In this document: one piece after another, positions 27,022 to 51,469 of the stretch
How the letters are laid out: each line of letters starts with the position of its first letter
Position numbering within the stretch: position 1 is the stretch's first letter
DNA from: Oscillospiraceae bacterium
GTDB taxonomy: Bacteria > Bacillota > Clostridia > Oscillospirales > Acutalibacteraceae
Reading direction: 5' to 3'
NCBI GenBank assembly: GCA_031255515.1
Contig: JAIRSI010000063.1
Location: forward strand, 1,239 to 65,238
Length of the DNA: 64,000 bases
Program-made: the position numbers and the translations under genes
The notes under the pieces: generated by a model
The model's input: only the letters and a program-made list of their open reading frames with translations
Told to the model about the DNA's origin: nothing
Database searches by the model: none

Positions 27022-27732
27022 TTAGTGACAACATCTAAATTGTTTTTGCACTATTTTTGAGTCTAAAGATTTCAAACAAATATTAAAATCATTTTCAGAA
27101 CAAATCGAAAAAATATAGTTATCATCTAATTCATAAGATTTTGCTAAATATTGCTTATTTAAATTTTTATCGTATACATTGAATTCGTTTGTACTGTGTT
27201 GGGATTTTTCAACTGAAAAATAATTAAAACCCTTGGTTAAACCAACACCCTGAAGTTTTGTATAACTTTCCTTTATAGTCCAAATATTATAAAATCGCTT
27301 TAATGATGCAATTGATTTAGCGCCAAATACGTAATTTTTTTCTGAATTTTCAAAATATCGATTCGCAATTTTATTATAGTTAAAATCTTTTATAATTTCA
27401 ATGTCAGCTCCAACAAGTTCCGAACTAAACGCCACTATTATATAATTTCCAGAATGAGAAATGCTAAAATGGGTATTTGGAAAATTTTCAATATAAGGTT
27501 TGCCCAATTTATCGTAATTCATATGTATCTCTGCATTATTTAAAGAAAAACTTTCTATAAAAAATTGTCTTACAATGATTTCAGCGCAAAGCGACCTGTT
27601 ATAATCAGCATCACTTTTGAAAAGGTTTAACTTGTCTCTTTTTTCTTTAGAAATGTATTTAAAAAAATCGTGAACATACCTTTTGTCCAAATCACTAATT
27701 TTTGTAAAACATATAAAAACTTCATTTTTCAT
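27022..27732 (-). CDS. 4'-phosphopantetheinyl transferase, Sfp type
   Basis: FSISHSGNYIIVAF, VGADIE and WTIKESYTKLQGVGL align with Sfp motifs. Confidence 0.9.
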   Translation of the reverse strand: MKNEVFICFTKISDLDKRYVHDFFKYISKEKRDKLNLFKSDADYNRSLCAEIIVRQFFIESFSLNNAEIHMNYDKLGKPYIENFPNTHFSISHSGNYIIVAFSSELVGADIEIIKDFNYNKIANRYFENSEKNYVFGAKSIASLKRFYNIWTIKESYTKLQGVGLTKGFNYFSVEKSQHSTNEFNVYDKNLNKQYLAKSYELDDNYIFSICSENDFNICLKSLDSKIVQKQFRCCH

Positions 27733-27743
27733 AGATTTATTTT

Positions 27744-28676
27744 TTAAAGGCTATCCTCCTCTTTAACTATTTCATGACACAAATTTCTTTCTAAATTCGC
27801 AATAATAAGCAGTTCTTTTTTTATCTTTGAAATCAATTCTAGTTTTTTAGATATAATGATTTTGATAAACATATTCTTAACTAATTCCCATTTGATATGA
27901 ATATTACTCATAGCATTAATATATTTATCTGGCCATCTTAAATACTCGAAAAGGCATTTTGTGTTGTATCTTCCATTAGCTATTGTTCTTAACTTTCTTA
28001 CCAGAAGCGCATTTGATGAATAACTTGGATCATTTGTAAGTTTCTCGATTGAATCTACAACATCTAACCAGTTACTAAATTTTTCAATTGAATTATAAAT
28101 TTCGTTTTTATTGTTATATTTTAAGATATCAAAATACCTATCCCTTACTAAAACAGGAGTAATTTCATTTTGAATATGTTGAGCTATCTTCACAGAAAAA
28201 CATTGATCTATATTAAATTCATTTAAATTTTCCAAATCGACAATATCGTCTGAATAAAATGAATCGGTTACATTTATTATTTTTTTTACAGAATCGTATT
28301 TTACCGTAAAAGTGTGCGGCCACGATACTCTCGGGACTTCTGAATTCCAGGGCAAATTATATGCGTTTGATGTAATTAATACAATATTACCATCAATCAA
28401 TAAATTAGTTATATCTGTGGCGTCATTATTGACAGCATTACAAACTAAACCTAAGTATAACTTTGCAAATTCAAAATAGTGTTCAGCGCACACATCGAAA
28501 TTGGAGTAATAATGAATGTTATCGGCTAATATGGGTGCAGTTGTTTTAAATCCCAAATCCCACGAAAATAAAAATAAAGGTCTAAAGTCGATTTTAAAAT
28601 GGTCGCATAAATTCGCCATAGCATTTTCCACACAACAGTGTGTTATATATCGTTTCACTAAGATGTGATCATTCAT
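27744..28676 (-). CDS. BtrH_N-like (papain/C39-fold) putative carrier-protein-dependent acyl/aminoacyl transferase, copy 2
   Basis: N-terminal Cys motif THCCVENAMANL, later WPHTF His, size about 310 aa. ATG 28676 is preceded by GAGGAA (ORF track starts at 28751). Paralogue of 45514-46476. Confidence 0.45.
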   Translation of the reverse strand: MNDHILVKRYITHCCVENAMANLCDHFKIDFRPLFLFSWDLGFKTTAPILADNIHYYSNFDVCAEHYFEFAKLYLGLVCNAVNNDATDITNLLIDGNIVLITSNAYNLPWNSEVPRVSWPHTFTVKYDSVKKIINVTDSFYSDDIVDLENLNEFNIDQCFSVKIAQHIQNEITPVLVRDRYFDILKYNNKNEIYNSIEKFSNWLDVVDSIEKLTNDPSYSSNALLVRKLRTIANGRYNTKCLFEYLRWPDKYINAMSNIHIKWELVKNMFIKIIISKKLELISKIKKELLIIANLERNLCHEIVKEEDSL

Positions 28677-28695
28677 AACAATTTCCTCGCTTTCA

Positions 28696-30486
28696 TCATT
28701 TATACCAACCGGATTGCGCATTATACATTTCAGCATATACTCCATCGTCATTTAAAAGTTTATCATGATCGCCCATCTCAGTTATTTCCCCATCTTTCAT
28801 AACAATAATGCGTTCTGCTATTTTTGCTGATCCCATACGATGTGTGACTATTATTGCTGTTTTATCTTCTGAAATTTTCATAAATTTTTTGTATATTGCA
28901 CTTTCTTCAATCGGATCAATTGCTGCTGTTGGCTCATCTAAAACTATTATATCACTATCACGATAAAGTCCTCTCGCGATAGCAATTCTTTGCCACTGTC
29001 CACCGGACAAGTCGATGCCGTCGAATTCGCGTGAAAGCATCGTATCAAGCCCATTCGGGAATATATCTTTGTTTTTTACGTTTATGCTGTTTTGTTCAAG
29101 TGTTTCTTCAACTTTATTCTCGTTACATTCATTTTTCAAATCCGATATTTGCACGTTTTCTTTCAAAGTCAAGGCATATCTTTGATATTTTTGAAAAACT
29201 CCTGAAACTTTCTCGAAAAGAGATCTATAACTTGTAGTATTTACATCTGTTTTACCAATTTTTACACTACCGTTTGTGGGCTTATATAATCCTGTAAGAA
29301 GTTTTACAAGCGTTGTTTTCCCAGCACCGTTTTCACCTACAATCGCAATTGTTTCACCCGGTTTTATTGTCAGATTTATGTTTTTAAGTGCGTCTTTATT
29401 GGCATTAGGATATCTAAAATTTGCATTTTCTATCACTATATTATCTCTTTTATTTATTTTTAGGTTTGGTCTGTTATCAGAAGGTATAATTAAAAATCTG
29501 AGAAAATTCCGTATTAATTCAAAATTATCTGCATGAGTTCCTATGCGTGATGTAAATTCTTCCATAATACCAAAAAGCATACCTATCGAGCTATAAACTG
29601 CTGCAAACGCTCCAATGGATATTTCTCCGTCAAGTAGGTTTTTTAACAATAAAAGCAATACTCCACCATAACCAATGAACGAAAGAGTATTAAGCCCCAA
29701 ATCTATCAACGCACTCCTCTTGCCTGCATCCCAAATTGCAGCATTTAGAGAATAAACTGTGTTTTCAATTAATTTTTTAAAATATCTAAAAGAACCTAGG
29801 TTTCTTGTTTCTTTATAGAAATTTTTACCACTTGCTGCATCTTGGTATGCCTCAAATTCTCGTCTGATTGGTGCAGCCTTATCCTCAAGTTTTGAAAACA
29901 CGGATGAACGTAAGATATGAGCAGTTATTGCAGGCACAAAAACAAATAAAAGACATAATATAAGCGTTGATTTAAGGCTTACTAAATAAAATCCCATAAA
30001 TATAAAAAATGTTACGTAACGAGTTATAAGACCAGATGTAAAGAAACAAAAAATCACTGCAGGCTCCGCGCCTTTTATAGCTTTATTTATATCGTCTAGA
30101 CGTTTTGGATTTTCATATTCTACAGGATCAATTAATCCCGATTTTTTATTTATTTTACTGTTTAAATAACCAAGAATTTTTGCAATCTGAACGTTCCAAG
30201 AAAAACTGTTCATAGCATTTGTAATATCATTTGCCAACTTAAAAGAAACATATATTATAAGTGCAGTTATTGCACTATAAAAAGTGCTTTTCCTAAGAGA
30301 AGCATTGTATACAGTGTCAAAAAACATTTGCGTAATCATAACATTCATACCAACAAAAACATTTAGTAACATACTTAGAATTTGTTTATAAACGAAATAT
30401 CCGGGCTGTGGCTTATAACACATGGGATATATTTTTTTTATCATATAAAAAAAGTTTATGGAATCTTTTGTTTTATTTTTAAGCAT
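28696..30486 (-). CDS. ABC exporter, fused permease-ATPase (half transporter B)
   Basis: N-terminal hydrophobic permease region with multiple predicted TM helices; Walker A GENGAGKTT, signature LSGGQWQR, Walker B IIVLDEPT. ATG 30486 overlaps the upstream stop. Confidence 0.9.
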   Translation of the reverse strand: MLKNKTKDSINFFYMIKKIYPMCYKPQPGYFVYKQILSMLLNVFVGMNVMITQMFFDTVYNASLRKSTFYSAITALIIYVSFKLANDITNAMNSFSWNVQIAKILGYLNSKINKKSGLIDPVEYENPKRLDDINKAIKGAEPAVIFCFFTSGLITRYVTFFIFMGFYLVSLKSTLILCLLFVFVPAITAHILRSSVFSKLEDKAAPIRREFEAYQDAASGKNFYKETRNLGSFRYFKKLIENTVYSLNAAIWDAGKRSALIDLGLNTLSFIGYGGVLLLLLKNLLDGEISIGAFAAVYSSIGMLFGIMEEFTSRIGTHADNFELIRNFLRFLIIPSDNRPNLKINKRDNIVIENANFRYPNANKDALKNINLTIKPGETIAIVGENGAGKTTLVKLLTGLYKPTNGSVKIGKTDVNTTSYRSLFEKVSGVFQKYQRYALTLKENVQISDLKNECNENKVEETLEQNSINVKNKDIFPNGLDTMLSREFDGIDLSGGQWQRIAIARGLYRDSDIIVLDEPTAAIDPIEESAIYKKFMKISEDKTAIIVTHRMGSAKIAERIIVMKDGEITEMGDHDKLLNDDGVYAEMYNAQSGWYK

Positions 30487-32359
30487 AAACTCCACCACCA
30501 TTTTTCTTTTTGCTTTTGTCATCTTCTTTGTTTTCTTTATACCATTCAGACTGACTTTTAAACATTTCAGCATAAATAGTATCTTTTGCCATAAGTTCAT
30601 CGAATGATCCAATCTCCACAGCTTTACCTTCTGATATAACTATTATCTCATCTGCAAGTTTAGTCAAACCCAATCTATGACTTGTAAATATAGTTATCCC
30701 AGTAGATTTGTTTTTTTGATTATGATTGATTATTTCTTTAAATTGTTCATAAACTTTGCTTTCTGATATGGGATCAAGTTCAGTGGTGGGTTCATCTAAT
30801 ATTTTTAAAGGTGCAGGATTCACAATAAGCCGTGCAAGTGCAATCTTTTGCCACTCACCACCAGATAAATCAATGCCACCTTCTTTTACTTTTGTTATCG
30901 GAGTCTCATATTTTTTAGGTAGTTTTTCCACAATTCTGGAAAGCCCAATGATATTTACAGCATTTTCAATTCTTTCGCAATCTTGTATATTGTTAACGTT
31001 TCCTATTGCGATGTTATTATAAAAATCAAGTGGATAGCGACAAAAATCTTGATATACAGTTGCAGAAAGAGCTTTTATTTCAGACTGCTCATATTCTCTT
31101 AATTCTTTGCCATTAATAAATATTTCGCCCTCATAATCCTCATATAATCTTGTTAACAATTTTGTAAGAGTTGTCTTTCCTGCTCCATTCATTCCTACAA
31201 TAGAATAATGTTTTCCGGAAACTAGCTTTATATTGATATTTTTTAGTATGTAAGATTGTGTTCCAGGATATTTAAAACTTACGTTTTTAAACTCTATTGA
31301 TTTTAATTTAATTATACTTGTATCTGGTAGACAATCGGAATTTTCATCTTCTTCAAATTCAATAAATTTATTTAAATCTTTTAGATATTCAGTCTTATGT
31401 TTGAAATCTGATACATGTGTTGAAATAGCCCATTGTAATTGCTGGCTAAACCCAAATATAGCATTTACAAGAGAGGTAAACATGCCTATAGTCAATTTAA
31501 TATTTCCACTTGCGTCTGGGAATATAGCCAAGGGTAACAATATTAAAATAACAATTACGCCACTTATTAGAACAAGCATTCCTGAAGCTGTTCTGCTAAT
31601 CCACGCTTTTCGGTCTACTTTTTTACGAGCAATTCTTGATACTTCATATTTATTAATATACTCTTGATTCATTTTTTCTGTATATCCATAGGTATAACGT
31701 TCTTCTATCGTATCTCTGCTTGTTAAAATTCCAGAAATGTATGCAGCCTTTCTATCAATTTTTGTCATTTCTTTATCTACATCATATTTTTTTTTGCCAA
31801 ACTTATGCGATATCACAAATGATGGTATACAAGTCACAACAAAGACAAGTGATGCCCACCATAGTTGCATTCCCAAAACTATAACAAACCCTACAATCTG
31901 TGCAATAATCCCCCAAGCATTAAAAATTTGATCAAAAAAACCTTGCAGGTTTACTTCTAAATTTACTGTGGCACGATTTATCACATCAACACTTTTCTGA
32001 TGTTCATAGTATTTAAATTTGATAGCTGCTTTCTTATCAGCAACTGCCAGAGCAACGAATTTTCTTATTTTGTTTCCTGCATTCGTATTTATTAAATTCA
32101 CCATTATTTTTACATAATAATTAAACAAAAGTATTGCAATGATTGCACCAAGAGGGAAAAATACTTTACTCAATTTACTATGATCTTCAACCGCTGCTAC
32201 AGCATTATCCAAAAACTTTGCAGTCATTATAATGTTTAATGTAGGTATAACCGATCCAATAATATTATTTATTGTTTTTATTATAACTGCGCCGGGAGCG
32301 AGTTTGAAATATAAAATTAATATAGTCAGGTAATTATACTTCTTTTTGCCAAACAGCAT
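30479..32359 (-). CDS. ABC exporter, fused permease-ATPase (half transporter A)
   Basis: Walker A GMNGAGKTT, signature LSGGEWQK, Walker B LKILDEPT, N-terminal TM domain; GGAGAG RBS. Confidence 0.9.
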   Translation of the reverse strand: MLFGKKKYNYLTILILYFKLAPGAVIIKTINNIIGSVIPTLNIIMTAKFLDNAVAAVEDHSKLSKVFFPLGAIIAILLFNYYVKIMVNLINTNAGNKIRKFVALAVADKKAAIKFKYYEHQKSVDVINRATVNLEVNLQGFFDQIFNAWGIIAQIVGFVIVLGMQLWWASLVFVVTCIPSFVISHKFGKKKYDVDKEMTKIDRKAAYISGILTSRDTIEERYTYGYTEKMNQEYINKYEVSRIARKKVDRKAWISRTASGMLVLISGVIVILILLPLAIFPDASGNIKLTIGMFTSLVNAIFGFSQQLQWAISTHVSDFKHKTEYLKDLNKFIEFEEDENSDCLPDTSIIKLKSIEFKNVSFKYPGTQSYILKNINIKLVSGKHYSIVGMNGAGKTTLTKLLTRLYEDYEGEIFINGKELREYEQSEIKALSATVYQDFCRYPLDFYNNIAIGNVNNIQDCERIENAVNIIGLSRIVEKLPKKYETPITKVKEGGIDLSGGEWQKIALARLIVNPAPLKILDEPTTELDPISESKVYEQFKEIINHNQKNKSTGITIFTSHRLGLTKLADEIIVISEGKAVEIGSFDELMAKDTIYAEMFKSQSEWYKENKEDDKSKKKNGGGVYA

Positions 32360-32462: not shown

Positions 32463-32477
32463 ATCAAATATACACCA

Positions 32478-33350
32478 TTACATTACTTTTTCTTGTTGTG
32501 TTAATTTCTTGCTTAATGTACCCTTGCTTAACATAATGTTAAACACTGCTGATAATTGATTCGTTAAAAAATGATAAACGCCATTTTCATTATTATCAAA
32601 ATCCGTTACACAATCAGCCACATCTTTAGCTTCTTTCGCACCATTTATCATGCACACTCCCATTCCAGAGTTTTTTAATAATTCAATATCATTAATAGCA
32701 TCTCCAAAAGAAATAATATTTTCAATAACAATATCATTTTCTTCTGCAACACGCTGAACTGCTATCCACTTGTTAACAGATCCAACGGATATATCAATAA
32801 TATCGTCTCGGCCTCGCCATCCGCAGACAATGATATCATCAAATAATCGTATAACTTTATTTTGCAAGGCCTGTAGAAAATCCGGCGAAACACTAATTAT
32901 TATTCTTTGAACATCAAAAATCTTAGCTAATTTATATCCTATATGGAAAAACGGCAAATTGTGATTAACTATAATTTCATGAAGATACTCATTTTCATTT
33001 GTGAGCAGATATGTTTCATTGCATCGTGATAAAACCACATTGTTAATTTCATAATTTTTTTGATATTTAAGCAAAAACTCTAAAATACTTTCAGCATTGC
33101 TAATATTATTTTGATGTCTTACAATTCCGTTATTCGGATTACAAATAAGTCCTCCATTATGACAAATTAAATCATTTTCTAGATTAAGCACTTTATAATA
33201 CTGATACGCATCTGATACAGAGCGTCCTGTAGCAATGTAAACCACATGTTCTTTTTTGATAAAGTGAATCGCTTGCTGCAATTCATTTGATAGATTATAG
33301 GTATCTGTTATGCTTGTTCCATCTATATCTAATACTAACATCTTTCTCAT
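32478..33350 (-). CDS. HAD-IIB Cof-type phosphatase
   Basis: LVLDIDGT, ATGRS and FGDAINDIELL motifs. ATG 33350 is preceded by AAGGAGG. Confidence 0.85.
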   Translation of the reverse strand: MRKMLVLDIDGTSITDTYNLSNELQQAIHFIKKEHVVYIATGRSVSDAYQYYKVLNLENDLICHNGGLICNPNNGIVRHQNNISNAESILEFLLKYQKNYEINNVVLSRCNETYLLTNENEYLHEIIVNHNLPFFHIGYKLAKIFDVQRIIISVSPDFLQALQNKVIRLFDDIIVCGWRGRDDIIDISVGSVNKWIAVQRVAEENDIVIENIISFGDAINDIELLKNSGMGVCMINGAKEAKDVADCVTDFDNNENGVYHFLTNQLSAVFNIMLSKGTLSKKLTQQEKVM

Positions 33351-33369
33351 GACTAATTTTCCTCCTTTA

Positions 33370-43869: not shown

Positions 43870-43887
43870 ATAAGTCACTTCCTTTGT

Positions 43888-45252: not shown

Positions 45253-45253
45253 A

Positions 45254-45514
45254 TTATTTCTCCTCACTATGTGTTTTTGTTTTTTCAAGCATTTGCTCTA
45301 TTATAGAGACCAACTGACCTATAGTTTTGTAATTATCATAAACTAATTGTGTATCTTCAAACCTAATATTAAATTCTTCTTCTAATGCAATTATCATTGT
45401 TATAAATTCAACTGAATCAATTCCGATTTCCAGAAGAGAAGTATCATCGTTAATAACAGCAGAATGGCTCACGTTTCGTTTTATTACATCATATATTGTT
45501 TCTTTCATTATCAT
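45254..45514 (-). CDS. Free-standing acyl/peptidyl carrier protein (CP2)
   Basis: 86 aa with IGIDSVEFITMI Ser motif. Confidence 0.8.
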   Translation of the reverse strand: MIMKETIYDVIKRNVSHSAVINDDTSLLEIGIDSVEFITMIIALEEEFNIRFEDTQLVYDNYKTIGQLVSIIEQMLEKTKTHSEEK

Positions 45515-46476
45515 TATACGCCTCCTATTTTATTTGATAGCACTATATTTATTGCTTGTCTTTCAATATCTGCAATCTGTGTTATCATTTTAGATATTGT
45601 TCCTCTATCGTTGTTTATTGAATTAGTTATATACGTTTTTAGTAGTTTTCCTTTTGCGGTTTTCCATAAAGTTACACTTTGTCTTAATAAATTCGAAGCC
45701 TCTTTTAAGTATTTTAATTTGAATAACTTATATATATAATCCAGCATACATATATAGGCATCACGGTACATTGCAACTTTTCTTATTTTGTCTAAGATTG
45801 GAACGGTTTGTAGATCATTTTTGAATTCATCAAATTCATAATTAATATCCATTTTAGTGCAAATATCACTCGCTAATTGTCTAATATTTGTGTCATTTTC
45901 ATTATCTTGATTTACTGTAATTATATCTTCTTGAATGACTTTGATATAATTTTCCATACTGTTTTTCTTAGGTAATTCTAAAAATATTAACTTAGCATAT
46001 TTGTTAATGCCAGAGTATAAATCTTCTCTTGGTATATTATATTTAGCATATTGGAAATAAGGATCAATACAAATATAAGTTTCAGTTTTAAAGTCATATT
46101 CGCTAATAATAATATAATGTGAAAAATGATATTTTTGATATGCTGTTGAACCTTTTAAATAATACAGATCAAAGCTTCCTATAGATGGATATGTAAATTC
46201 TTCAAAGTGTTCTTGATTATTGAAGCGACCATCTTCTAGTATCTCTACTTCCCAAGTAAATCCGTGAAATTGCCCAGCCCTATCAGAAGCATCGATTTGA
46301 TTGATAATATCGATTCGTTCACCTACTCTTTTATTACTTTCAGCGACATCATACTTTAGTTTCCAGTCACTACTCGATATCATATGGTAGTCTCGACCAT
46401 AATATTTAGCTAAAGTAGCAATAACTGCAAGAAAGCAATTATAAACGCCTACATTTTTAATATGTTCAAATATCAT
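45514..46476 (-). CDS. BtrH_N-like (papain/C39-fold) putative carrier-protein-dependent transferase, copy 1
   Basis: N-terminal Cys motif YNCFLAVIATLAKYYG, later HFSHYIIISEYD. ATG 46476 is preceded by GAGGTG (ORF track GTG at 46485). Confidence 0.45.
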   Translation of the reverse strand: MIFEHIKNVGVYNCFLAVIATLAKYYGRDYHMISSSDWKLKYDVAESNKRVGERIDIINQIDASDRAGQFHGFTWEVEILEDGRFNNQEHFEEFTYPSIGSFDLYYLKGSTAYQKYHFSHYIIISEYDFKTETYICIDPYFQYAKYNIPREDLYSGINKYAKLIFLELPKKNSMENYIKVIQEDIITVNQDNENDTNIRQLASDICTKMDINYEFDEFKNDLQTVPILDKIRKVAMYRDAYICMLDYIYKLFKLKYLKEASNLLRQSVTLWKTAKGKLLKTYITNSINNDRGTISKMITQIADIERQAINIVLSNKIGGV

Positions 46477-46503
46477 AGTCAACACCTCTCTTCACTCATA
46501 AAA

Positions 46504-47592
46504 TCACATGCCTTCAAAGGCTTTACCTTGAGCTATTTTAAATTTCATTTCTTCATCAAAATATTTATCAAATAAACTGTCTCTATCAATACAGAAAAGT
46601 CTTTCCATAAAGCTATTTTTCCAAATAAAATGTCCTTCATTATCTAGTCCAAAACTATTCAAAAACTCTTCATTCGGTACTTGCAAACCAGTAATAGTTA
46701 ATAAAGAATCATCTCGAAAGACAAATGCTGTATAATATAAAACGTACATAATGTATCTCTCAACTTTATAATTAATGCAAATCGATCGAAACTTTTCCCA
46801 AGAAATTTTAGACCGTTTAATAAATCCGTAAATATCAGCAAAATATTTCAATCTATACGCATAAATTTTATAAAGCACATATACAGAATTCATATCAAAG
46901 TATGCATGTAAGCACATGTGCAGAAACATATATTCATCCTGAAATGTTTTAACTTTAAAACCTTTATAATCAACTATCTGCGAATTGTCAATCAATTTTG
47001 ATGTGTCCCAGGAATCACTTTCATTCCAAAAAATATTAAAATTTAAATCCAAGTTCACTACCGGCACTAGCTCATTACCAGTTTCTTTTAAAAAAGGAGC
47101 TGATTGCTGTGTATATGAGAGATAGAACAATTCTTGTTGTCGGGAAAAATTTTTAATTGTTTTTGTTGTTGGATCGTAAACTCCTTGTTTATATCCATAA
47201 TTATCAAGAATATTTTTTACTTTTGAATAATCTTCACGTTTTATGATAACATCTAAATCATCGGAACGCCTATAACTTTCATCGATATAAGCAGTTTTAG
47301 CTGCATATATCCCCTTGGTGGTAACATAATCTATGTTGGATTTTTTGAATTCATCTGCAGCTGGATCAAAATGAATAAAATTTTCGTGGTATCTTTTTAA
47401 ATTCTTTTGTTTTGATATTTGATTAGCTAAACGATGATTTCTATCAAGCTGCATTGCATCACTAATTAGCAAACCTACATCGTGTTGGTGAGCAAGTTCT
47501 AACAATGGCTCATTTTGAGGATATTGTGATGGCATAGATTCGTTACAAAAACATGTTCTCAACATTTCCAATAATAAATTTTGCAATACCAT
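46504..47592 (-). CDS. Uncharacterised nucleotidyltransferase family protein (NTP_transf_5-like)
   Basis: KGIYAA...YRRSDDLDVIIKRED..V..L...GY, VNLDLNFNIFW and LHMCLHAYFD, as in the PF14907 pattern. Confidence 0.55.
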   Translation of the reverse strand: MVLQNLLLEMLRTCFCNESMPSQYPQNEPLLELAHQHDVGLLISDAMQLDRNHRLANQISKQKNLKRYHENFIHFDPAADEFKKSNIDYVTTKGIYAAKTAYIDESYRRSDDLDVIIKREDYSKVKNILDNYGYKQGVYDPTTKTIKNFSRQQELFYLSYTQQSAPFLKETGNELVPVVNLDLNFNIFWNESDSWDTSKLIDNSQIVDYKGFKVKTFQDEYMFLHMCLHAYFDMNSVYVLYKIYAYRLKYFADIYGFIKRSKISWEKFRSICINYKVERYIMYVLYYTAFVFRDDSLLTITGLQVPNEEFLNSFGLDNEGHFIWKNSFMERLFCIDRDSLFDKYFDEEMKFKIAQGKAFEGM

Positions 47593-47638
47593 ATATCCAT
47601 CTCCTGGAACTAATTTTGTATTATAATCATCTTAAAAC

Positions 47639-49558
47639 CTAATCACTAAACATGATATTGTTTATCGATGAAATGCGAAGTAATTTTTCAACATCAGATT
47701 TTTTCGTTATATCGATATTTTCTTTTAGACTATAATTTGAATAATAAAACTCAACAACTTCTTTTGACAGACAATAAGGATTATATTTCTCAAACAATAT
47801 TTTATCTGCCGTTGGATCATATTCGCGATAAAATTCCGTCCATCTCCCCAATGGTGTTTCAAGTTTATATTCATCAAAGTTTTTTAGTTCAATTCTGTAC
47901 CCATTAATGTATATATGTTCTATTCCTTTCCGCAGCCCAAAATTCAACGCTTCCGATGCTTTATTAATTATTGGCTCACCTTTATCGTTCAAGGAAGTAT
48001 TGCATAACAATGGAACAGACGTTTTTTTGTGAAATGCTTTGAGAATATCGTATACAATTGCATTATTTTCTCTTTTTATTGTTTGAACGCGAGCACTTTG
48101 ATCTATATGAGATATTGCAGGAATTTGGTGCAATTTATCTGAATGAATTTTAAATGTGTGAAGCATAAAAGGAGATTCGTATGCACAATCAAACCATTCA
48201 TTTAAGTACTCAAACATAACAATTGGAGCAACTGGCCTCCACCATTGTCTCTGTTTAATTTTATTTAAATTATTTTTAGAATCTACGGAGCGCGCATCCG
48301 CAAGAATACTTCTTGATCCTAATGCTCTTGGACCAATTTCACTTCTACCTTCAAACCAGATAATTGGTGATTCAATAATATCATCAGTAAGCGTGTCAAA
48401 ATCTAATTCTTTTACACTTTTTATATATGGTTTCCATTGTTTATCGCTAATTATTTCATTTAATTGCTTTTCTTCGTCTCCGTAATATGGATGGTTCATA
48501 TTAAAATTTATCTTATTAATGTATTTATTGAATGCATATAGAGCCATTCCTAGCGATTGGCCTGTATCACTAACGCACGGTGGAGCTAAGAAACCTTTAA
48601 ATTTAAAATGTTCCATTAACCAATTATTACACATACAATTTAGTGCATATCCTCCTGAAATAGACAAATATGAATCTTTTGTATCAATATTATATTTTTT
48701 GGAAATTAAACTAATAGTTTTGCACATCATATGTATAGATTGTTGCTGAATAACCTTCATAACCATACTTACTTTATTATCCTCAATAGTAAATCGATCA
48801 TCAAATTTATTTACTTTAGTACCACAATCTGAAATATTAATTACATCATCATTTAGTTTTTCAAGCCATTTATACCCAGCGTAAGCCGAATTTCGATCTT
48901 CTATTTCTGGAGCATCTTCACATTCTAATAGATACTCGCTAGATGATGCGCTTGCCAAAGCCATCAAGGAACCCTGCTCCATTTTATATTTGTTTTTGGC
49001 AAAGGTCCACAACAAGGCTGGCGAAGATACGTGAAATACTTCTACTATCTCACCTTTTTTAACAACGCATCCGGCATAAAATTTTTTGTTCATTGCTTTT
49101 GAATCTATTACTTGATCAGGACCACCGTCAACTGCTAGACATATAATTGTATCGTTATAGAATACCTCTGTATTAATAAGTAGTGATGAAAATAAATGTG
49201 CAATACTGTGATATGTGAATTCTGAAAACTCACTTAAAGAATGGTACTCTATAGAAGTAAGCTTACACAATTCCGGCGTTCCCCATATATCATTTATGTC
49301 ATTTAAATTGAGTCCATATGCGGACAACAAACTGTTAATTAATTTTTCTGCATTGGACACACTAAACAAAGACTGACCATGTTTTTTATACCCTGTTAAT
49401 CGTTCAATTTCCCAATAGTGAATTAAACTTATTTTATCTGATTCTTTTTTCCACAAAGAAATATTTTGGTCATGCCTAACTACAGCTTTTGTTATGCAAC
49501 ACAATGGATCTATGTGTAAGTATGCTGCTAAGTAATATCCATCCTTAATTTCTTTCAT
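47639..49558 (-). CDS. Carbamoyltransferase, NodU/CmcH/TobZ family
   Basis: SGGYALNCMCN, EGRSEIGPRALGSRSILAD, WWRPVAPIV, HIDQSARVQT and LCNTSLNDKGEPI. Confidence 0.9.
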   Translation of the reverse strand: MKEIKDGYYLAAYLHIDPLCCITKAVVRHDQNISLWKKESDKISLIHYWEIERLTGYKKHGQSLFSVSNAEKLINSLLSAYGLNLNDINDIWGTPELCKLTSIEYHSLSEFSEFTYHSIAHLFSSLLINTEVFYNDTIICLAVDGGPDQVIDSKAMNKKFYAGCVVKKGEIVEVFHVSSPALLWTFAKNKYKMEQGSLMALASASSSEYLLECEDAPEIEDRNSAYAGYKWLEKLNDDVINISDCGTKVNKFDDRFTIEDNKVSMVMKVIQQQSIHMMCKTISLISKKYNIDTKDSYLSISGGYALNCMCNNWLMEHFKFKGFLAPPCVSDTGQSLGMALYAFNKYINKINFNMNHPYYGDEEKQLNEIISDKQWKPYIKSVKELDFDTLTDDIIESPIIWFEGRSEIGPRALGSRSILADARSVDSKNNLNKIKQRQWWRPVAPIVMFEYLNEWFDCAYESPFMLHTFKIHSDKLHQIPAISHIDQSARVQTIKRENNAIVYDILKAFHKKTSVPLLCNTSLNDKGEPIINKASEALNFGLRKGIEHIYINGYRIELKNFDEYKLETPLGRWTEFYREYDPTADKILFEKYNPYCLSKEVVEFYYSNYSLKENIDITKKSDVEKLLRISSINNIMFSD

Positions 49559-49839
49559 TTGCTTTCTCCTTTACTGCAGTAATTGTTTAGTAAAGCAAAT
49601 AACTTTGTAAAAGTATTAAGTTTTTCAATTAGCAAATCCTCATCTTTAAGAGAAAAATTGTACTTTTCTTCAAACATAACAACTAATTGAATGCAAGAAA
49701 TAGACGTCATTCCGTGTGCCATCAAATCTTCATCTTCTTTTATATTTTTTACATTTTCAATGTCAACACCTAAAAGTTTTGATATCATTTTATAAACATC
49801 ATTTTTACATATCTTCATTAAACATTCCCTGCCTTTCAT
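49555..49839 (-). CDS. Free-standing carrier protein (CP1)
   Basis: 94-aa ORF (the start may be ATG 49818) with HGMTSISCIQLV in carrier-protein helix II context. Its stop overlaps the carbamoyltransferase ATG. Confidence 0.65.
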   Translation of the reverse strand: MKGRECLMKICKNDVYKMISKLLGVDIENVKNIKEDEDLMAHGMTSISCIQLVVMFEEKYNFSLKDEDLLIEKLNTFTKLFALLNNYCSKGESK

Positions 49840-49868
49840 AAAATCATTTATATTTTGTAGCTACCGAA

Positions 49869-51431
49869 TTACATGATTTTGAATTTAATTAAATCTCGTA
49901 TAAGTTTATTTTTAAGAATATCTAACTCTTTGTCGAAATTTTTTAAAGTTGACATGAACTCGTCATACCGCTTTTCACACAAACCTATGTTCATGTCCAT
50001 ATAAAGTATACGGAAGTAATCACTGAAAACTCTGGAACGTCTATTCATTATTGAAGTCACATCTTCTTCAAAAGTTTTCCCGTGGGGAAGAAAAGGAGCT
50101 AAATGAAAAATAAATGTAGAAATTCCTGCAGTTTCTGTATCAAATATTAAAAAATACTTACGCAGAAACGTAGATACTTCGGCCGCAAACGGATGTAAAA
50201 AACGGTATGAATGTCCTTGTTTTAGAAAATCGTCAGTAGGAATTAGTAGACCATCTTCTTCGATTTTTTTCCTACTCATTGTTCCTGGATCTGCAACTAA
50301 ATGATGAACATAGTTGTCTAAATCATGTGGCTGATGTTCCTCTAAAAAAAGAAAATTTGCTCTGAGTCTTTCCGGTGTGGAATATGGGTTAATCATAATA
50401 AATCCATAATGATCTGAATAAATACCAGCTTCATTTAACTTCTTTAAAGCAAGTCTGTTTTTTTCAATAGTGGTTGCTTTATTATATAGTTTTAAATCAT
50501 ATTCATTCCCAGACTCCACACCTATTAATACTGCATGAAATCCGGCTTTTTTCATTAACTTAAATAAATCTGTATCAACTTTAGAAATAAAATTACTACG
50601 CAAATAGCAACGCAAGCTAACTTTCAAGTTGCTTTCAAAAATAAGATTACAAAAATCCTTAATCTTCTTTATACCTAATTCGCCACCAGGATCTTCGAAA
50701 CTTCCTCCTATAAGCCAAAAACATTTAATCGATGATTCATTACGTATTGTTTTAATTTCATTAAAAATACTTTCGGCTGATCGTCCAGTCCATTTTTTAT
50801 AGAACTGCCCACGAGTACAATACGCACATCTCATACAACATCCATGACTATCACAGATAAATGCATAGTAGTTATTATAAAAATTTTTACTATTTTTGAT
50901 AAAAAACCTGTCTGGAAGAGGTAATTCATTTATATCTATATTTAAAAATTCTTTATTATCGGTACTTTCTTTTGATACAATATTTTTGTGTTCTGCAACA
51001 AATTTAGATATATCATCGTTTTTGTTAATACAATCTATAAGTGAAGATAAAGTATATTCACAGTCCCCTAGAATAATATAATCAATATGCGAAAAACGCT
51101 TATCTTTAAGTATTTCTTTGTAGTAAATGGAGGCATACTTACCACTTAGTACAACTATACTATTTGGATTTTCACTTTTTATTTTATCGCCCAATTGGGA
51201 AAAAAACAAAATGTCATCAGGATATACTGACGATTCAGAATAAACGGACATCACATACAATTTACCACTAAAATCCAAGCAATAACAGCACTGATTGTCA
51301 ACGTCCATACCACCGCTGAAATGCGCATGGTTAGTTTTATATCCCTTTTCTGATAAATATGTTTTTAAACGCCCAGCTTCTATGTTTTCCAAACCATCAG
51401 TAGATCTTGATATTAATGTCGTTTTAATCAT
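49869..51431 (-). CDS. B12-binding-domain radical SAM enzyme (class B)
   Basis: CCMRCAYC (CX3CX2C) preceded by a ~180-aa Rossmann-like cobalamin-type domain. ATG 51431 is preceded by GGGGA. Confidence 0.8.
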   Translation of the reverse strand: MIKTTLISRSTDGLENIEAGRLKTYLSEKGYKTNHAHFSGGMDVDNQCCYCLDFSGKLYVMSVYSESSVYPDDILFFSQLGDKIKSENPNSIVVLSGKYASIYYKEILKDKRFSHIDYIILGDCEYTLSSLIDCINKNDDISKFVAEHKNIVSKESTDNKEFLNIDINELPLPDRFFIKNSKNFYNNYYAFICDSHGCCMRCAYCTRGQFYKKWTGRSAESIFNEIKTIRNESSIKCFWLIGGSFEDPGGELGIKKIKDFCNLIFESNLKVSLRCYLRSNFISKVDTDLFKLMKKAGFHAVLIGVESGNEYDLKLYNKATTIEKNRLALKKLNEAGIYSDHYGFIMINPYSTPERLRANFLFLEEHQPHDLDNYVHHLVADPGTMSRKKIEEDGLLIPTDDFLKQGHSYRFLHPFAAEVSTFLRKYFLIFDTETAGISTFIFHLAPFLPHGKTFEEDVTSIMNRRSRVFSDYFRILYMDMNIGLCEKRYDEFMSTLKNFDKELDILKNKLIRDLIKFKIM

Positions 51432-51469
51432 AAAAATCCCCATTCCTGTTTTAATTTAACCGTGAATCA

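What the first reader, a model, noticed from the sequence alone, without database searches (positions are those of the whole stretch)
27022..51443. About 24 kb co-directional operon joining a T4-like 5-hydroxymethyl-pyrimidine nucleotide module to carrier-protein/NRPS-like chemistry and ABC export: candidate undescribed acyl/peptidyl-nucleoside pathway
Seen: 22 intact minus-strand ORFs from 51431 down to 27022, with tiny gaps or overlapping stop/start codons. These are ATGA overlaps at 40084-40087 and 49555-49558, overlaps at 30479-30486 and 33996-33999, and a stop at 38275-38277 abutting the ATG at 38274. It is therefore one tightly packed unit that is probably translationally coupled. By motif, the first group is two thymidylate-synthase-fold proteins, an SHMT paralogue, a dTMP-kinase-like kinase, a nonsense-disrupted CMP/dCMP-deaminase-like ORF and a GT2. 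Phage T4 uses the same enzyme classes to make and glucosylate 5-hydroxymethyl-dCMP (gp42, gp1, cd, glucosyltransferases). Interleaved with these are a carrier-less NRPS adenylation protein, an ANL ligase, three free carrier proteins, two BtrH_N-like proteins and an Sfp-type PPTase. Also present are a NodU/CmcH carbamoyltransferase, a B12 radical SAM enzyme, an APH-fold kinase, a PF14907-like nucleotidyltransferase, a Cof phosphatase and a two-gene ABC exporter. Established: TS-fold CMP/dCMP hydroxymethylases initiate known nucleoside natural products (MilA in mildiomycin, BcmA in bacimethrin). BtrH transfers a carrier-protein-bound aminoacyl chain onto an amine in butirosin biosynthesis. Inference: the product is a secreted pyrimidine nucleoside or nucleotide whose C5-(hydroxy)methyl group or sugar is aminoacylated/acylated from carrier proteins, carbamoylated and possibly C-methylated. 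I know of no characterised cluster with this combination, especially in low-GC Bacillota. That is an impression, not a search result.
Basis: partly seen in the sequence, partly recalled or inferred. Interest (0 to 1): 0.9.

Follow-up and report, generated by a model that had tools for sequence, protein, structure and literature searches.

The report
Orphan deoxycytidine–carrier-protein biosynthetic gene cluster
A 24-kb operon in a gut-type Clostridia genome joins an enzyme predicted to add a hydroxymethyl group to the DNA building block dCMP with free-standing carrier proteins, protease-like amide ligases and export pumps, so it probably makes an undescribed secreted nucleoside compound; the same cluster occurs in culturable Paenibacillus strains, where this can be tested.

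Summary
There are 22 intact, tightly packed minus-strand ORFs at 27022-51443 plus a nonsense-broken dCMP-deaminase remnant, with the stated overlaps. Nearly all predicted domains were confirmed.

Corrections and additions:
- The main TS-fold enzyme is closest to MilA but carries the Arg/Ser/Asp signature of deoxy-cytosine enzymes such as T4 dCMP hydroxymethylase. The predicted substrate is therefore dCMP, not CMP.
- The two "BtrH_N-like" proteins miss Pfam thresholds. They are distant paralogues with invariant Cys/His/Asp, and their models match CtaG, CcbD and AziU2/U3. This places them among carrier-protein-dependent papain-like ligases.

The cluster sits in a low-GC stretch next to tRNA-Ala, among housekeeping genes of an Oscillospiraceae MAG. 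Its core is syntenic at 60-79% amino-acid identity in two Paenibacillus genomes and several metagenome contigs, so it is a conserved, horizontally spread orphan BGC family.

Best reading (confidence about 0.6): a thiotemplated but non-canonical pathway that acylates or aminoacylates a 5-hydroxymethyl-2'-deoxycytidine-derived nucleoside, then tailors and exports it. No paper in the searchable library describes it. antiSMASH/MIBiG could not be run.

The parts
51457..52149 (-). Decayed short-chain dehydrogenase (SDR) gene upstream of the operon. It has frameshifts and a stop. Intact SDR genes flank the orthologous clusters.
   Evidence: tblastn with the L007 SDR gives pieces in two frames with an in-frame stop. 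An intact adh_short gene precedes the rSAM gene in L005.
49869..51443 (-). B12-binding radical SAM enzyme (class B, probable C-methyltransferase), 524 aa. First intact gene of the operon.
   Evidence: PF04055 3e-15; PF02310 below cut-off. Only sub-threshold matches to BchE, PhpK and HpnJ-type B12-rSAM models. A CX3CX2C motif is visible in the sequence.
49555..49839 (-). Free carrier protein PCP1 (94 aa).
   Evidence: PF00550 1.5e-8.
47639..49558 (-). NodU/CmcH-type carbamoyltransferase (639 aa). Accessory gene, absent from every related locus examined.
   Evidence: PF16861 1e-55 and PF02543. NodU model 2e-48, below cut-off. No tblastn hit in L001-L006.
46504..47592 (-). PF14907 (NTP_transf_5) putative nucleotidyltransferase (362 aa).
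   Evidence: PF14907 1e-26. No PDB relative by sequence. Conserved in all related loci.
45514..46485 (-). CtaG/CcbD/BtrH-class papain-like transacylase 1 (about 320 aa). Its stop overlaps the start of PCP2.
   Evidence: Invariant Cys17, His120/His123 and Asp141. Sub-threshold, collinear BtrH_N + DUF4872 hits. Foldseek matches AziU2/U3 at 1.8e-6 and CcbD at 8.6e-4, but the model pLDDT is only 64. Paralogue of the 335-aa protein by hhalign, 95.7% probability.
45254..45514 (-). Free carrier protein PCP2 (86 aa, GIDS motif).
   Evidence: PF00550 5e-11.
43888..45288 (-). SHMT paralogue (probable start at 45252). Presumed dedicated supplier of 5,10-methylene-THF. It has RYHAGCE where I recall canonical SHMT having RYYGGCE.
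   Evidence: PF00464 6e-123. NF000586 463 bits against a cut-off of 335. Best PDB match is the atypical SHMT 7qcw at 1e-127, versus 1e-105 for ordinary bacterial SHMTs.
41581..43878 (-). Stand-alone NRPS adenylation protein with a dead N-terminal condensation-domain remnant and no PCP (about 762 aa).
   Evidence: PF00501 1e-78 and a PF00668 C-terminal fragment only. TIGR01733 391 bits, above cut-off. No HHxxxDG motif. Specificity code DMY(V/I)LGLMDK is conserved in 6 orthologues. Best PDB match is LgrA module 2.
40084..41577 (-). ANL-family acyl/aryl-acid ligase (497 aa).
   Evidence: PF00501 2e-65 and PF13193. Acyl-CoA ligase and MenE-like models score below their cut-offs.
39224..40087 (-). 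TS-fold pyrimidine C5-hydroxymethylase homologue (287 aa from Met18 of the ORF that ends at 40138). Predicted substrate is dCMP.
   Evidence: PDB MilA 1.8e-48 versus thymidylate synthases at 2e-19 or weaker. Residues Glu/Arg/Cys/Ser/Asp/His/Tyr sit at MilA positions 68/133/155/176/186/216/218. These are interpreted with PMC5175136.
38275..39219 (-). APH-fold small-molecule kinase (314 aa). HGD...N and DFD motifs are present.
   Evidence: PF01636 2e-12. Motifs are visible in the sequence.
38041..38274 (-). Free carrier protein PCP3 (77 aa, GLDS motif).
   Evidence: PF00550 4.5e-8.
36516..38054 (-). Tandem alpha/beta-hydrolase (512 aa; second fold from about residue 277). Candidate thioesterase or acyltransferase.
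   Evidence: PF00561 1e-10. PDB alpha/beta-hydrolases match residues 14-248, and cinnamoyl esterases match 285-365 weakly. Conserved in all full loci.
35663..36523 (-). GT2 (GT-A) glycosyltransferase (286 aa).
   Evidence: PF00535 1e-27. DDGS and DCD motifs are visible in the sequence.
35040..35648 (-). dTMP-kinase-like P-loop NMP kinase (202 aa).
   Evidence: PF02223 2.7e-15. TIGR00041 is below cut-off. Some homologues of the TS-like enzyme are fused to this domain (P0071, P0073).
34347..34994 (-). Short, divergent second TS-fold protein (215 aa). It keeps Cys127 and Asp158, but by manual mapping of the alignment it appears to lack the phosphate-binding arginines.
   Evidence: TIGR03283 1.9e-8 over its full length, below cut-off. 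PHROG TS families at 1e-7. The only PDB hits are TS 9iqu and MilA. Orthologue alignment.
34023..34319 (-). dCMP/CMP-deaminase pseudogene with two in-frame stops and a truncated C-terminus. The gene is intact in the Paenibacillus clusters.
   Evidence: The intact PF00383 gene is seen in L001 and L007.
33370..33999 (-). Orphan 209-aa protein, always directly downstream of the short TS-fold gene. No detectable family.
   Evidence: Only 8 representative clusters among 1.84 billion proteins. No Pfam or PDB match even with a profile.
32478..33380 (-). Cof-type HAD-IIB phosphatase (probable start at 33350).
   Evidence: PF08282 5e-45. TIGR00099 at 134.7 bits against a cut-off of 137.
30479..32359 (-). 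ABC exporter subunit 1 (fused TMD-NBD, 626 aa).
   Evidence: PF00005 3e-26. MsbA and type-I-secretion-like models score below their cut-offs.
28696..30486 (-). ABC exporter subunit 2 (start at ATG 30486; 8-nt overlap with subunit 1).
   Evidence: PF00005 7e-33. Start codon and RBS checked.
27744..28751 (-). CtaG/CcbD/BtrH-class papain-like transacylase 2 (probable start at 28667, 307 aa).
   Evidence: Near-invariant Cys40 and His143, invariant His146 and Asp163. AF2 model pLDDT 78, pTM 0.79. Foldseek matches CtaG at 3.8e-8 with TM 0.60-0.66, and also CcbD and AziU3/U2.
27022..27732 (-). Sfp-type 4'-phosphopantetheinyl transferase (236 aa). Last gene of the cluster.
   Evidence: PF01648 1.4e-15 and PF22624.

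Best explanation
This is an orphan biosynthetic gene cluster for a secreted, acylated or aminoacylated pyrimidine 2'-deoxynucleoside (or nucleotide).

Proposed flow (the enzyme families are shown by the tools; the chemical steps are inferred):
1. The SHMT paralogue makes 5,10-methylene-THF. The MilA-like TS-fold enzyme uses it to convert dCMP into 5-hydroxymethyl-dCMP.
2. The dTMP-kinase-like kinase, the Cof phosphatase, the short second TS-fold protein with its 209-aa partner, the GT2 and (in other species) a dCMP deaminase adjust the phosphorylation state, base and glycosylation of this scaffold.
3. In parallel, the Sfp-type PPTase primes three free carrier proteins. A stand-alone A domain (conserved code DMY(V/I)LGLMDK, an alpha-amino acid) and an ANL ligase (a carboxylic acid) load them.
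4. No functional condensation domain exists. Two CtaG/CcbD/BtrH-class papain-like Cys-His-Asp ligases would therefore join the carrier-bound units and/or transfer them to an amine or hydroxyl of the nucleoside. The tandem alpha/beta-hydrolase would act as releasing or transferring enzyme.
5. The B12-radical SAM enzyme (C-methylation), the APH-fold kinase, the PF14907 nucleotidyltransferase and, in this copy only, a carbamoyltransferase tailor the product or inactivate it for self-protection.
6. The two-gene ABC exporter secretes it.

The cluster is a horizontally mobile unit shared between Clostridia and Paenibacillus.
For: - Gene layout and coupling.
- Domain assignments.
- TS-like enzyme: closest to MilA (1.8e-48). 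It has the Glu/Cys/His/Tyr catalytic set, Asp at the cytosine-selecting position and Arg/Ser at the deoxyribose-selecting positions, in the window and in 117 of its 120 listed homologues (rules from PMC5175136).
- Functional link to the kinase: fusions of this enzyme to a dTMP-kinase domain occur among homologues.
- SHMT passes the curated SHMT cut-off and scores only 83 bits against the transaldolase model.
- The two unknown proteins are paralogues with invariant Cys/His/Asp. Their models match CtaG, CcbD and AziU. This class is described as thiotemplated ligases together with BtrH and AsbE (PMC12865890).
- The C-domain remnant lacks HHxxxDG in all six orthologues.
- The core is syntenic at 60-79% amino-acid identity in Paenibacillus sp. 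FJAT-27264 and BJ-4 and in metagenome contigs.
- Context: low GC (about 0.30 against 0.35-0.41 in the flanks), tRNA-Ala next door, housekeeping flanks.
- No defence-system signal.
Against: - No product is known and no enzyme was assayed.
- Hydroxymethylation cannot be told from methylation by sequence.
- The deoxy/cytosine prediction rests on three residues calibrated on MilA, T4 dCH and TS only.
- The acceptor of the acyl groups is not identified. Nothing shows directly that the nucleotide branch and the carrier-protein branch converge on one molecule.
- The model of the 323-aa protein is of low confidence (pLDDT 64).
- BtrH_N and the second TS fold are sub-threshold in Pfam.
- Two genes have decayed in this copy (deaminase, SDR), and the second radical SAM gene of the relatives is missing. 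This MAG's version may make a variant product or be losing function.
- antiSMASH/MIBiG was not available, so a recent characterisation outside the searchable library cannot be excluded.
Confidence: 0.6

Rival explanations
1. Nucleobase antimetabolite pathway of the bacimethrin type. The TS-like enzyme makes 5-hydroxymethyl-(d)CMP, the base is cleaved off, and it is converted into a 5-hydroxymethylpyrimidine (HMP-like) antivitamin. The carrier-protein genes would decorate the base or make a separate moiety.
For: The TS-like enzyme is closest to MilA, whose relative BcmA starts bacimethrin biosynthesis. The Cof-type HAD is in the same family as HMP-PP phosphatase, but the hit is weak and generic. 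Kinases are present.
Against: No MilB/BcmB-type N-glycosidase and no SAM O-methyltransferase appear among the 22 ORFs. The enzyme lacks the CMP-type Lys/Ala pair shared by MilA and BcmA. This reading does not explain three PCPs, two ligases, a GT2 and a PPTase.
Confidence: 0.1
2. Cell-envelope polymer modification. This would be a Dlt-like system that aminoacylates or acylates a glycopolymer (GT2, NTase, HAD, ABC exporter), with the nucleotide enzymes making an unusual nucleotide-activated donor.
For: The A domain also scores against DltA models, below their cut-offs. Free PCPs, a GT2 with EPS/teichuronic-acid-like hits and MsbA-like ABC exporters are present. The flanking genes are cell-wall genes: ddl, murA, LD-carboxypeptidase and a PBP4-like gene.
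Against: No polymerase, flippase (Wzx/Wzy), MBOAT or DltD-like gene is present. A C5-hydroxymethylase with a dedicated SHMT has no known role in envelope synthesis. An in-cluster Sfp-type PPTase, the island-like GC and the patchy distribution are typical of secondary metabolism.
Confidence: 0.08
3. RiPP cluster. The papain/C39-like proteins would be leader peptidases. The B12-rSAM, the APH-like kinase (weak LxmK resemblance) and the PF14907 protein (from my recollection, seen in lasso-peptide clusters) would modify a ribosomal peptide exported by bacteriocin-type ABC transporters.
For: Weak Peptidase_C39 hits. Sub-threshold hits to B12-rSAM RiPP methyltransferase models and to LxmK. Bacteriocin-type ABC models are among the hits.
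Against: The intergenic gaps leave no room for a conserved precursor gene. The small ORFs in L008 and L009 are not conserved. Full-length bipartite fold matches are to CtaG and CcbD rather than to C39 domains. Three PCPs, an A domain, an ANL ligase and a PPTase, plus the nucleotide enzymes, would be unexplained.
Confidence: 0.04
4. Nucleic-acid modification or defence. The module would make 5-hm-dC nucleotides for incorporation into, or hypermodification of, the cell's own DNA (as in T4 and other phages), with amino acids appended. Alternatively it would be an anti-phage system.
For: The enzyme classes match the T4 set: dCMP hydroxymethylase type, NMP kinase, deaminase and a glycosyltransferase. 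One related locus lies next to TIR/ThsB defence genes.
Against: No dCTPase, DNA polymerase, DNA glycosyltransferase of the phage type or DNA-binding protein is present. PADLOC gives only generic P-loop hits. ABC exporters, carrier proteins and a PPTase point to a secreted small molecule. The cluster is not in a prophage: the flanks are housekeeping genes.
Confidence: 0.05
5. Housekeeping thyA/glyA genes that merely lie beside an unrelated NRPS-like cluster.
For: The SHMT passes the curated SHMT family cut-off.
Against: The TS-like protein fails every ThyA model by a wide margin and has Asp, not Asn, at the base-selecting site. Both genes are interleaved with the PCP and ligase genes and keep their positions in all related loci, in two bacterial classes. 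The GC matches the island, not the flanks.
Confidence: 0.01

Closest known systems
MilA (mildiomycin) and BcmA (bacimethrin) CMP 5-hydroxymethylases
   Same: TS-fold enzyme that starts a specialised-metabolite pathway. MilA is the best solved-structure match (1.8e-48, about 260 aligned residues). The catalytic Glu, Cys, His and Tyr, and the cytosine-selecting Asp, are conserved.
   Different: The CMP-selecting Lys133/Ala176 pair is replaced by Arg/Ser, which in MilA mutants switches preference to dCMP. The rest of those pathways is absent here: no MilB/BcmB N-glycosidase and no cytosylglucuronic-acid synthase.
Phage T4 dCMP hydroxymethylase pathway (gp42, gp1 dNMP kinase, Cd deaminase, glucosyltransferases)
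   Same: The same predicted substrate signature (Arg, Ser, Asp). The same set of enzyme classes sit side by side: hydroxymethylase, NMP kinase, deaminase (decayed here) and a glycosyltransferase.
   Different: This is a chromosomal bacterial operon with carrier proteins, ligases, a PPTase and exporters. It has no dCTPase or replication genes. The GT is a GT2/GT-A enzyme, which from my recollection differs from the phage DNA glucosyltransferase type. The product is presumably a small molecule, not DNA.
Closthioamide (cta) thiotemplated assembly with the papain-like ligase CtaG
   Same: Stand-alone PCPs, stand-alone activating ligases, an in-cluster PPTase and Cys-His-Asp papain-like ligases in place of condensation domains. 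The 335-aa protein's model matches CtaG crystal structures (E 3.8e-8, TM 0.60-0.66). Both come from anaerobic Clostridia.
   Different: Sequence identity to CtaG is about 10-11%. There are no thioamide-forming or PHBA genes here. The cta pathway has no nucleotide branch.
CcbD/LmbD (lincosamides) and BtrH (butirosin) carrier-protein-dependent acyl transfer to an amino sugar
   Same: Fold-level match to CcbD, including its PCP complex structures. The BtrH_N + DUF4872 architecture is seen at sub-threshold level. The logic is a PCP-bound aminoacyl group transferred to a free sugar-type acceptor.
   Different: Pfam thresholds are not reached. The acceptor here is unknown and is presumed to be a nucleoside rather than an aminoglycoside or thio-octose.

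Membership tests
Thymidylate-synthase-fold pyrimidine C5 (hydroxy)methylases (PF00303) | Significant match to the TS family profile or fold | tested here: met
   PF00303 at 107 bits against a cut-off of 24.3. 127 PDB TS-family chains match at E<=1e-3.
Thymidylate-synthase-fold pyrimidine C5 (hydroxy)methylases (PF00303) | Catalytic Cys nucleophile plus conserved Glu, His and Tyr (MilA Cys155, Glu68, His216, Tyr218) | tested here: met
   Cys145, Glu63, His206 and Tyr208 of the 287-aa protein align to these positions. They are conserved in nearly all of the 120 homologues.
Housekeeping thymidylate synthase ThyA | Passes the curated ThyA equivalog models and has Asn at the base-selecting position (uracil) | tested here: not met
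   The best ThyA model gives 95 bits against a cut-off of 327. The position holds Asp176 (rule).
MilA/BcmA-type CMP (ribo) hydroxymethylases | Lys133' and Ala176, which select ribose | tested here: not met
   Arg124 and Ser166 occupy these positions in the window protein and in 117 of 120 homologues.
T4-type dCMP hydroxymethylases | Arg, Ser and Asp at the three selecting positions | tested here: met
   interpreted with PMC5175136. No direct alignment to the T4 gp42 sequence was made.
T4-type dCMP hydroxymethylases | Product is the hydroxymethyl rather than the methyl derivative | not testable with these tools
   This needs an enzyme assay with dCMP and CH2-THF.
CtaG/BtrH/AsbE/CcbD-class thiotemplated papain-like ligases | Bipartite fold: N-terminal papain-like domain plus C-terminal helical domain | tested here: met
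   335-aa protein: Foldseek to CtaG at 3.8e-8 (TM 0.60-0.66) and to CcbD (TM about 0.62) over more than 330 columns. 323-aa protein: AziU2/U3 at 1.8e-6 and CcbD at 8.6e-4, but from a model with pLDDT 64. The two proteins are paralogues.
CtaG/BtrH/AsbE/CcbD-class thiotemplated papain-like ligases | Cys-His-Asp catalytic triad | tested here: inconclusive
   Cys17, His120/123 and Asp141 are invariant in one family. In the other, His146 and Asp163 are invariant and Cys40 and His143 nearly so. Spacing resembles CtaG Cys11/His128/Asp144. The residues were not superposed on the crystal structure.
CtaG/BtrH/AsbE/CcbD-class thiotemplated papain-like ligases | Pfam BtrH_N (PF14399) match above the gathering score | tested here: not met
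   11.9 bits for the window protein and 19.6 bits for its homologue P0134, against a cut-off of 29.7. DUF4872 and DUF6005 are also sub-threshold.
CtaG/BtrH/AsbE/CcbD-class thiotemplated papain-like ligases | Uses carrier-protein-bound acyl donors | not testable with these tools
   Only genomic context is available: the gene overlaps the start of PCP2, and three PCPs and a PPTase are in the operon.
Canonical modular NRPS | C-A-PCP modules with a functional condensation domain (HHxxxDG) | tested here: not met
   The A domain is real (TIGR01733 at 391 bits against a cut-off of 317). Only the C-terminal part of a C domain is present and no HHxxxDG motif is found. The PCPs are separate proteins.
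Serine hydroxymethyltransferase | Passes the curated SHMT model and is not a threonine transaldolase | tested here: met
   NF000586 at 463 bits against a cut-off of 335. The fluorothreonine transaldolase model gives 83 bits against a cut-off of 650. The atypical RYHAGCE motif and the best match to 7qcw leave the exact reaction open.
Mildiomycin/blasticidin-type peptidyl-cytosine nucleoside clusters | CMP N-glycosidase (MilB/BlsM type) and cytosylglucuronic-acid synthase | tested here: not met
   None of the 22 ORFs gives such a Pfam or NCBIfam hit. The 209-aa orphan cannot be assigned to any family.
Known anti-phage defence systems (PADLOC) | Match to a defence-system protein model | tested here: not met
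   Only generic P-loop hits, all to the kinase.

The most novel reading that the evidence does not exclude
The cluster family makes the first thiotemplated peptidyl- or acyl-2'-deoxynucleoside natural product. It would be built on free 5-hydroxymethyl-deoxycytidylate, a metabolite so far known (to my knowledge) only as a phage DNA precursor. Assembly would use CtaG-class protease-like ligases instead of condensation domains. A second, phosphate-site-less TS-fold protein and a 209-aa orphan partner would carry out a pyrimidine transformation with no described precedent. As a deoxynucleoside analogue secreted by gut and soil Bacillota, it could act as a DNA-replication or nucleotide-metabolism poison.
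Probability: 0.35. Interest if true: 0.8.

Novelty: new variant of a known kind. Interest (0 to 1): 0.62.

Why it matters
Two known biosynthetic logics have not been reported together: TS-fold hydroxymethylases that start nucleoside antibiotics, and stand-alone carrier proteins joined by papain-like ligases. To my knowledge, the first has not been reported with a deoxycytidylate-type enzyme.

If the inferred pathway is right, 5-hm-dCMP chemistry, so far a hallmark of phage DNA, would extend into bacterial secondary metabolism. It would also add nucleoside acceptors to the newly defined CtaG/BtrH/CcbD ligase class, and give functions to PF14907 and to two uncharacterised protein families.

The question is directly testable because near-identical clusters sit in culturable Paenibacillus isolates (FJAT-27264 and BJ-4).

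Tried and rejected
- Exact-sequence look-ups of the window's rSAM protein, of P0001 and of P0138 found no contig.
- The single genome-contig scan, run with one protein, returned only two close loci. A profile query would have reached further.
- Literature look-ups for PDB entries 9iqu/9iqc/9ir2 and 7qcw gave nothing. The origin of the best structural relatives of the short TS-fold protein and of the SHMT therefore stays unknown.
- The 209-aa ORF has no PDB hit, alone or as a profile, and no Pfam or PHROG hit. Only 8 representative relatives exist. I had considered it as a possible MilB-like N-glycosidase, but nothing supports that.
- PF14907 has no solved relative by sequence.
- PADLOC gives no defence signal.
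- A search for a tRNA-derived direct repeat marking an integration site found none, and no integrase is present. 'Genomic island' therefore rests on GC content, the adjacent tRNA and the patchy distribution only.
- The supplement of the CtaG paper, which lists CtaG-like BGCs, is not held.
- The housekeeping thyA/glyA reading and the RiPP reading were rejected (see rivals).
- The A-domain specificity code does not match any code I can recall. Its strong similarity to the glycine-activating LgrA module 2 is not mirrored in the code, so I assign no substrate.

Full report

Yes. The ORF listing finds 22 minus-strand ORFs between 51443 and 27022. My junction table reproduces each stated feature:
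- the ATGA overlaps at 49555-49558 and 40084-40087. The latter holds if the TS-like gene starts at Met18 of the longest ORF, as its orthologues do;
- the stop at 38275-38277 abutting the ATG at 38274;
- the ATGA at 33996-33999;
- an ATG at 30486 with a GGTGGTGGAG ribosome-binding site, giving the 8-nt overlap with the first ABC gene.

All other gaps are -14 to +46 nt, with two exceptions. One is 118 nt before the ABC genes. The other is 347 nt and contains a dead deaminase gene. The intact Paenibacillus deaminase aligns to 34023-34319 at 47% identity across two in-frame stops, and the C-terminal third is missing.

No credible minus-strand intrinsic terminator lies inside the unit. The arrangement is not chance, because the same order recurs in at least seven other loci (section 3).

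**2. What are the genes?**

Pfam and NCBIfam confirm almost every assignment. In operon order:
- B12-binding radical SAM enzyme
- PCP1
- NodU/CmcH carbamoyltransferase
- PF14907 nucleotidyltransferase
- a 323-aa unknown protein
- PCP2
- SHMT
- an A-domain protein with only the C-terminal stub of a condensation domain
- ANL ligase
- TS-fold protein
- APH-fold kinase
- PCP3
- GT2
- dTMP-kinase-like kinase
- a 215-aa protein
- the deaminase remnant
- a 209-aa protein
- Cof-type HAD phosphatase
- two fused ABC exporter subunits
- a 335-aa unknown protein
- Sfp-type PPTase

Just upstream, at 51457-52149, lies a decayed SDR gene. Intact SDR genes accompany the orthologous clusters.

*The main TS-fold enzyme.* Its best solved relative is MilA, the CMP 5-hydroxymethylase of mildiomycin (1.8e-48). 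Genuine thymidylate synthases score 2e-19 or weaker, and every curated ThyA model fails by a wide margin.

The MilA structure paper shows three things (PMC5175136). Lys133' and Ala176 select ribose. The A176S/K133R double mutant switches MilA to dCMP. Asp186, rather than Asn, marks cytosine-using enzymes.

Aligning the window protein and its 120 best homologues to MilA gives Glu/Arg/Cys/Ser/Asp/His/Tyr at positions 68/133/155/176/186/216/218. This holds in the window and in 117 of the 120. That is the deoxy-cytosine signature of T4 dCMP hydroxymethylase.

So the enzyme resembles MilA overall but should prefer dCMP. This prediction is an inference from three calibrated residues. Sequence cannot decide between methyl and hydroxymethyl transfer. 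Some homologues are fused to a dTMP-kinase domain (P0071, P0073), which ties the neighbouring kinase to the same substrate stream.

*The SHMT.* It passes the curated SHMT model (463 bits against a cut-off of 335) and is far from the threonine transaldolase model. Its best solved relative is an atypical 460-aa SHMT, 7qcw, whose origin I could not trace. Both carry RYHAGCE where I recall canonical SHMT having RYYGGCE. Supplying methylene-THF is the simplest role. A different aldol-type reaction is not excluded.

*The second TS-fold protein.* The 215-aa ORF has no Pfam hit. It does match the archaeal short-TS model TIGR03283 along its whole length (1.9e-8, below cut-off) and phage TS families (1e-7). 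In the PDB it hits only TS 9iqu and MilA, weakly, both alone and as a profile of six orthologues.

Cys127 and Asp158 are invariant. By my manual mapping of the alignment, the positions of the phosphate-binding arginines hold other residues. The fold claim is therefore moderately supported. The protein probably does not bind a 5'-monophosphate in the canonical way (inference).

*The 209-aa protein.* Its downstream partner is a true orphan. It has 8 representative relatives among 1.84 billion proteins and no family or structure match.

*The two 'BtrH_N-like' proteins.* Neither reaches any Pfam threshold. The 323-aa family gives only sub-threshold but collinear BtrH_N + DUF4872 hits. The 335-aa family gives sub-threshold DUF6005 and C39_2 hits.

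Each family is small, with 15 and 12 members in 5.8 billion proteins. Each shows conserved Cys, His and Asp residues at matching spacing. Profile-profile comparison shows they are paralogues over 283 columns (95.7% probability, E 9e-9).

AlphaFold models were built from these alignments:
- The 335-aa protein (pLDDT 78, pTM 0.79) matches the crystal structures of CtaG, the closthioamide papain-like ligase (E 3.8e-8, TM 0.60-0.66). It then matches CcbD and AziU3/U2.
- The 323-aa protein has a weaker model (pLDDT 64). It matches AziU2/U3 and CcbD, including the CcbD-PCP complex.

The CtaG paper defines this group (CtaG, BtrH, AsbE, MllDE, with CcbD and AziU as the only solved fold relatives) as thiotemplated ligases. 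They share a Cys-His-Asp triad and an N-terminal papain-like plus C-terminal helical architecture (PMC12865890). The Pfam label does not.

*The assembly line.* The A domain is genuine (TIGR01733 above cut-off). Its N-terminal C-domain stub has no HHxxxDG motif in any of six orthologues.

Its ten-residue code, read from motif anchors that I recalled from GrsA-PheA, is DMY(V/I)LGLMDK. It is conserved across orthologues. Asp235 indicates an alpha-amino acid, but I cannot name it. The best solved relative is the Gly-activating module 2 of LgrA, yet the code differs from the Gly code as I recall it.

Three separate PCPs, an ANL ligase, the PPTase and two CtaG-class ligases together make a stand-alone thiotemplated system of the closthioamide kind.

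**3. Context and relatives**

The 323-aa protein is 100% identical to a protein named 'MAG: Oscillospiraceae bacterium LBH37_03800', on a 66,133-bp contig.

Cluster genes have 26-36% GC (about 0.30 overall). Flanking genes have 35-41% on the high-coordinate side and 31-38% on the other. A tRNA-Ala(CGC) lies at 52895-52970. The flanks are housekeeping genes: rbfA, a DHH phosphoesterase, ddl, murA, ftsQ and truB on one side; ogt, an LD-carboxypeptidase and a PBP4-type carboxypeptidase on the other. No att-like repeat or integrase was found.

Related clusters:
- Bacillus (Paenibacillus) sp. FJAT-27264 and Paenibacillus sp. BJ-4 carry the core genes, from rSAM through HAD, in the same order at 62-79% amino-acid identity.
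- So do metagenome contigs L004, L008 and L009.
- L005, a Lachnoclostridium MAG, is truncated by a transposase.
- A more distant variant, L006, has a TS-like protein at 51% identity. It keeps the TS-like, HAD, PF14907, papain-like, ANL, hydrolase, APH, rSAM and ABC genes. It lacks the SHMT, kinase, GT2 and the two small proteins.

Differences in the window copy:
- The carbamoyltransferase is unique to it.
- A second radical SAM gene found in the full-length close relatives (FJAT-27264, BJ-4, L004, L008, L009) is absent.
- The deaminase and the SDR have decayed.
- The ABC pair is only about 22-36% identical to those of the relatives.

In BJ-4 the 335-aa homologue follows the exporters and is coupled to an extra A-PCP protein.

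This is a conserved, horizontally spread, uncharacterised BGC family. Its members are annotated only as 'thymidylate synthase' or 'hypothetical protein'.

**4. Most likely mechanism and rivals**

See the best explanation for the proposed flow. The shown elements are the enzyme families, the residue signatures, the fold class of the ligases, the absence of a working C domain, the synteny and the context. Two steps are inferred: that the nucleotide and carrier-protein branches converge on one molecule, and what that molecule is.

Rivals, each of which leaves large parts of the gene set unexplained:
- a bacimethrin-like base antimetabolite (no N-glycosidase or O-methyltransferase; wrong ribose signature);
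- a Dlt-like envelope modification (no polymer machinery);
- a RiPP (no precursor gene; carrier proteins unexplained);
- DNA modification or defence (no DNA-level enzymes; PADLOC negative);
- housekeeping genes (refuted for the TS-like gene).

**5. Comparison with what is known, and novelty**

The closest systems are:
- the MilA/BcmA-initiated nucleoside pathways;
- PolB in polyoxin, another TS-type C5 enzyme (seen only as the title and abstract listed);
- the T4 hm-dC nucleotide module;
- the closthioamide, lincosamide and butirosin carrier-protein-dependent papain-like ligases.

Five full-text searches found no paper that combines these features or describes this cluster. That library lacks most subscription journals, and MIBiG/antiSMASH were unavailable. 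I rate it a new variant of a known kind: an orphan hybrid of two known logics.

**6. Verdict**

Interest is 0.62. It is a well-defined, conserved and experimentally accessible orphan cluster with several unusual parts, but its product is still hypothetical.

Noticed in passing
window 51457-52149 (-): A decayed short-chain dehydrogenase gene (pieces in two frames, with an in-frame stop) lies directly upstream of the radical SAM gene. Intact SDR genes sit beside the orthologous clusters in L005 and L007.
   Followed up: partly
window 52895-52970 (-) and 51444-52894: tRNA-Ala(CGC) lies about 1.45 kb upstream of the operon, with a terminator-like hairpin just after it (52866-52843). GC drops from about 0.38-0.40 to about 0.30 across 26-52 kb. 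No tRNA-derived direct repeat and no integrase were found, so the insertion mechanism is unclear.
   Followed up: partly
window 26490-26987 (-): An O6-alkylguanine-DNA alkyltransferase (Ogt/MGMT) gene follows the PPTase gene after 34 nt, on the same strand. Its GC is island-like (0.31). It could be a flanking housekeeping gene, or a self-protection gene if the product damages DNA. Its presence next to the related clusters was not checked, because the fetched loci do not reach that far.
   Followed up: no
homologues P0071, P0073, P0090, P0093: Some relatives of the TS-like enzyme are 468-528 aa long. For P0071 and P0073 the table lists a fused thymidylate-kinase domain (PF02223 + PF00303). This fusion links the two activities functionally.
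   Followed up: no
homologues P0096-P0116: A large set of 223-229-aa proteins is about 50% identical to the core of the TS-like enzyme. They occur on many metagenome contigs. Their context (phage or bacterial) was not examined.
   Followed up: no
window 33370-33999 (-): The 209-aa protein belongs to an extremely rare family: 8 representative clusters among 1.84 billion proteins. It has an invariant Trp56 and an F..E-L-D motif. In all full cluster copies it sits directly downstream of the short TS-fold gene, with overlapping or closely spaced stop and start codons.
   Followed up: yes
window 43888-45288 (-): The SHMT paralogue and its best solved relative, 7qcw, share RYHAGCE in place of what I recall as the canonical RYYGGCE motif, plus a C-terminal extension. 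The origin and function of 7qcw could not be traced in the literature library.
   Followed up: partly
L005 12146-20876: In the Lachnoclostridium MAG the cluster is cut after the TS-like gene by a transposase. The next genes encode TIR/ThsB-type and AAA proteins, which look like a defence island.
   Followed up: no
L007 8734-12590: In Paenibacillus sp. BJ-4 an IS element (rve-family transposase) separates the ABC exporter genes from the 335-aa-type ligase gene. That gene is followed by an extra A-PCP didomain gene absent from the window.
   Followed up: partly
window 21583-22431 (-) and 19599-21314 (-): A Schlafen AlbA_2 / HATPase_c_4 protein and a DUF4153 membrane protein lie a few kb beyond the cluster. 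They are unrelated to the finding.
   Followed up: no
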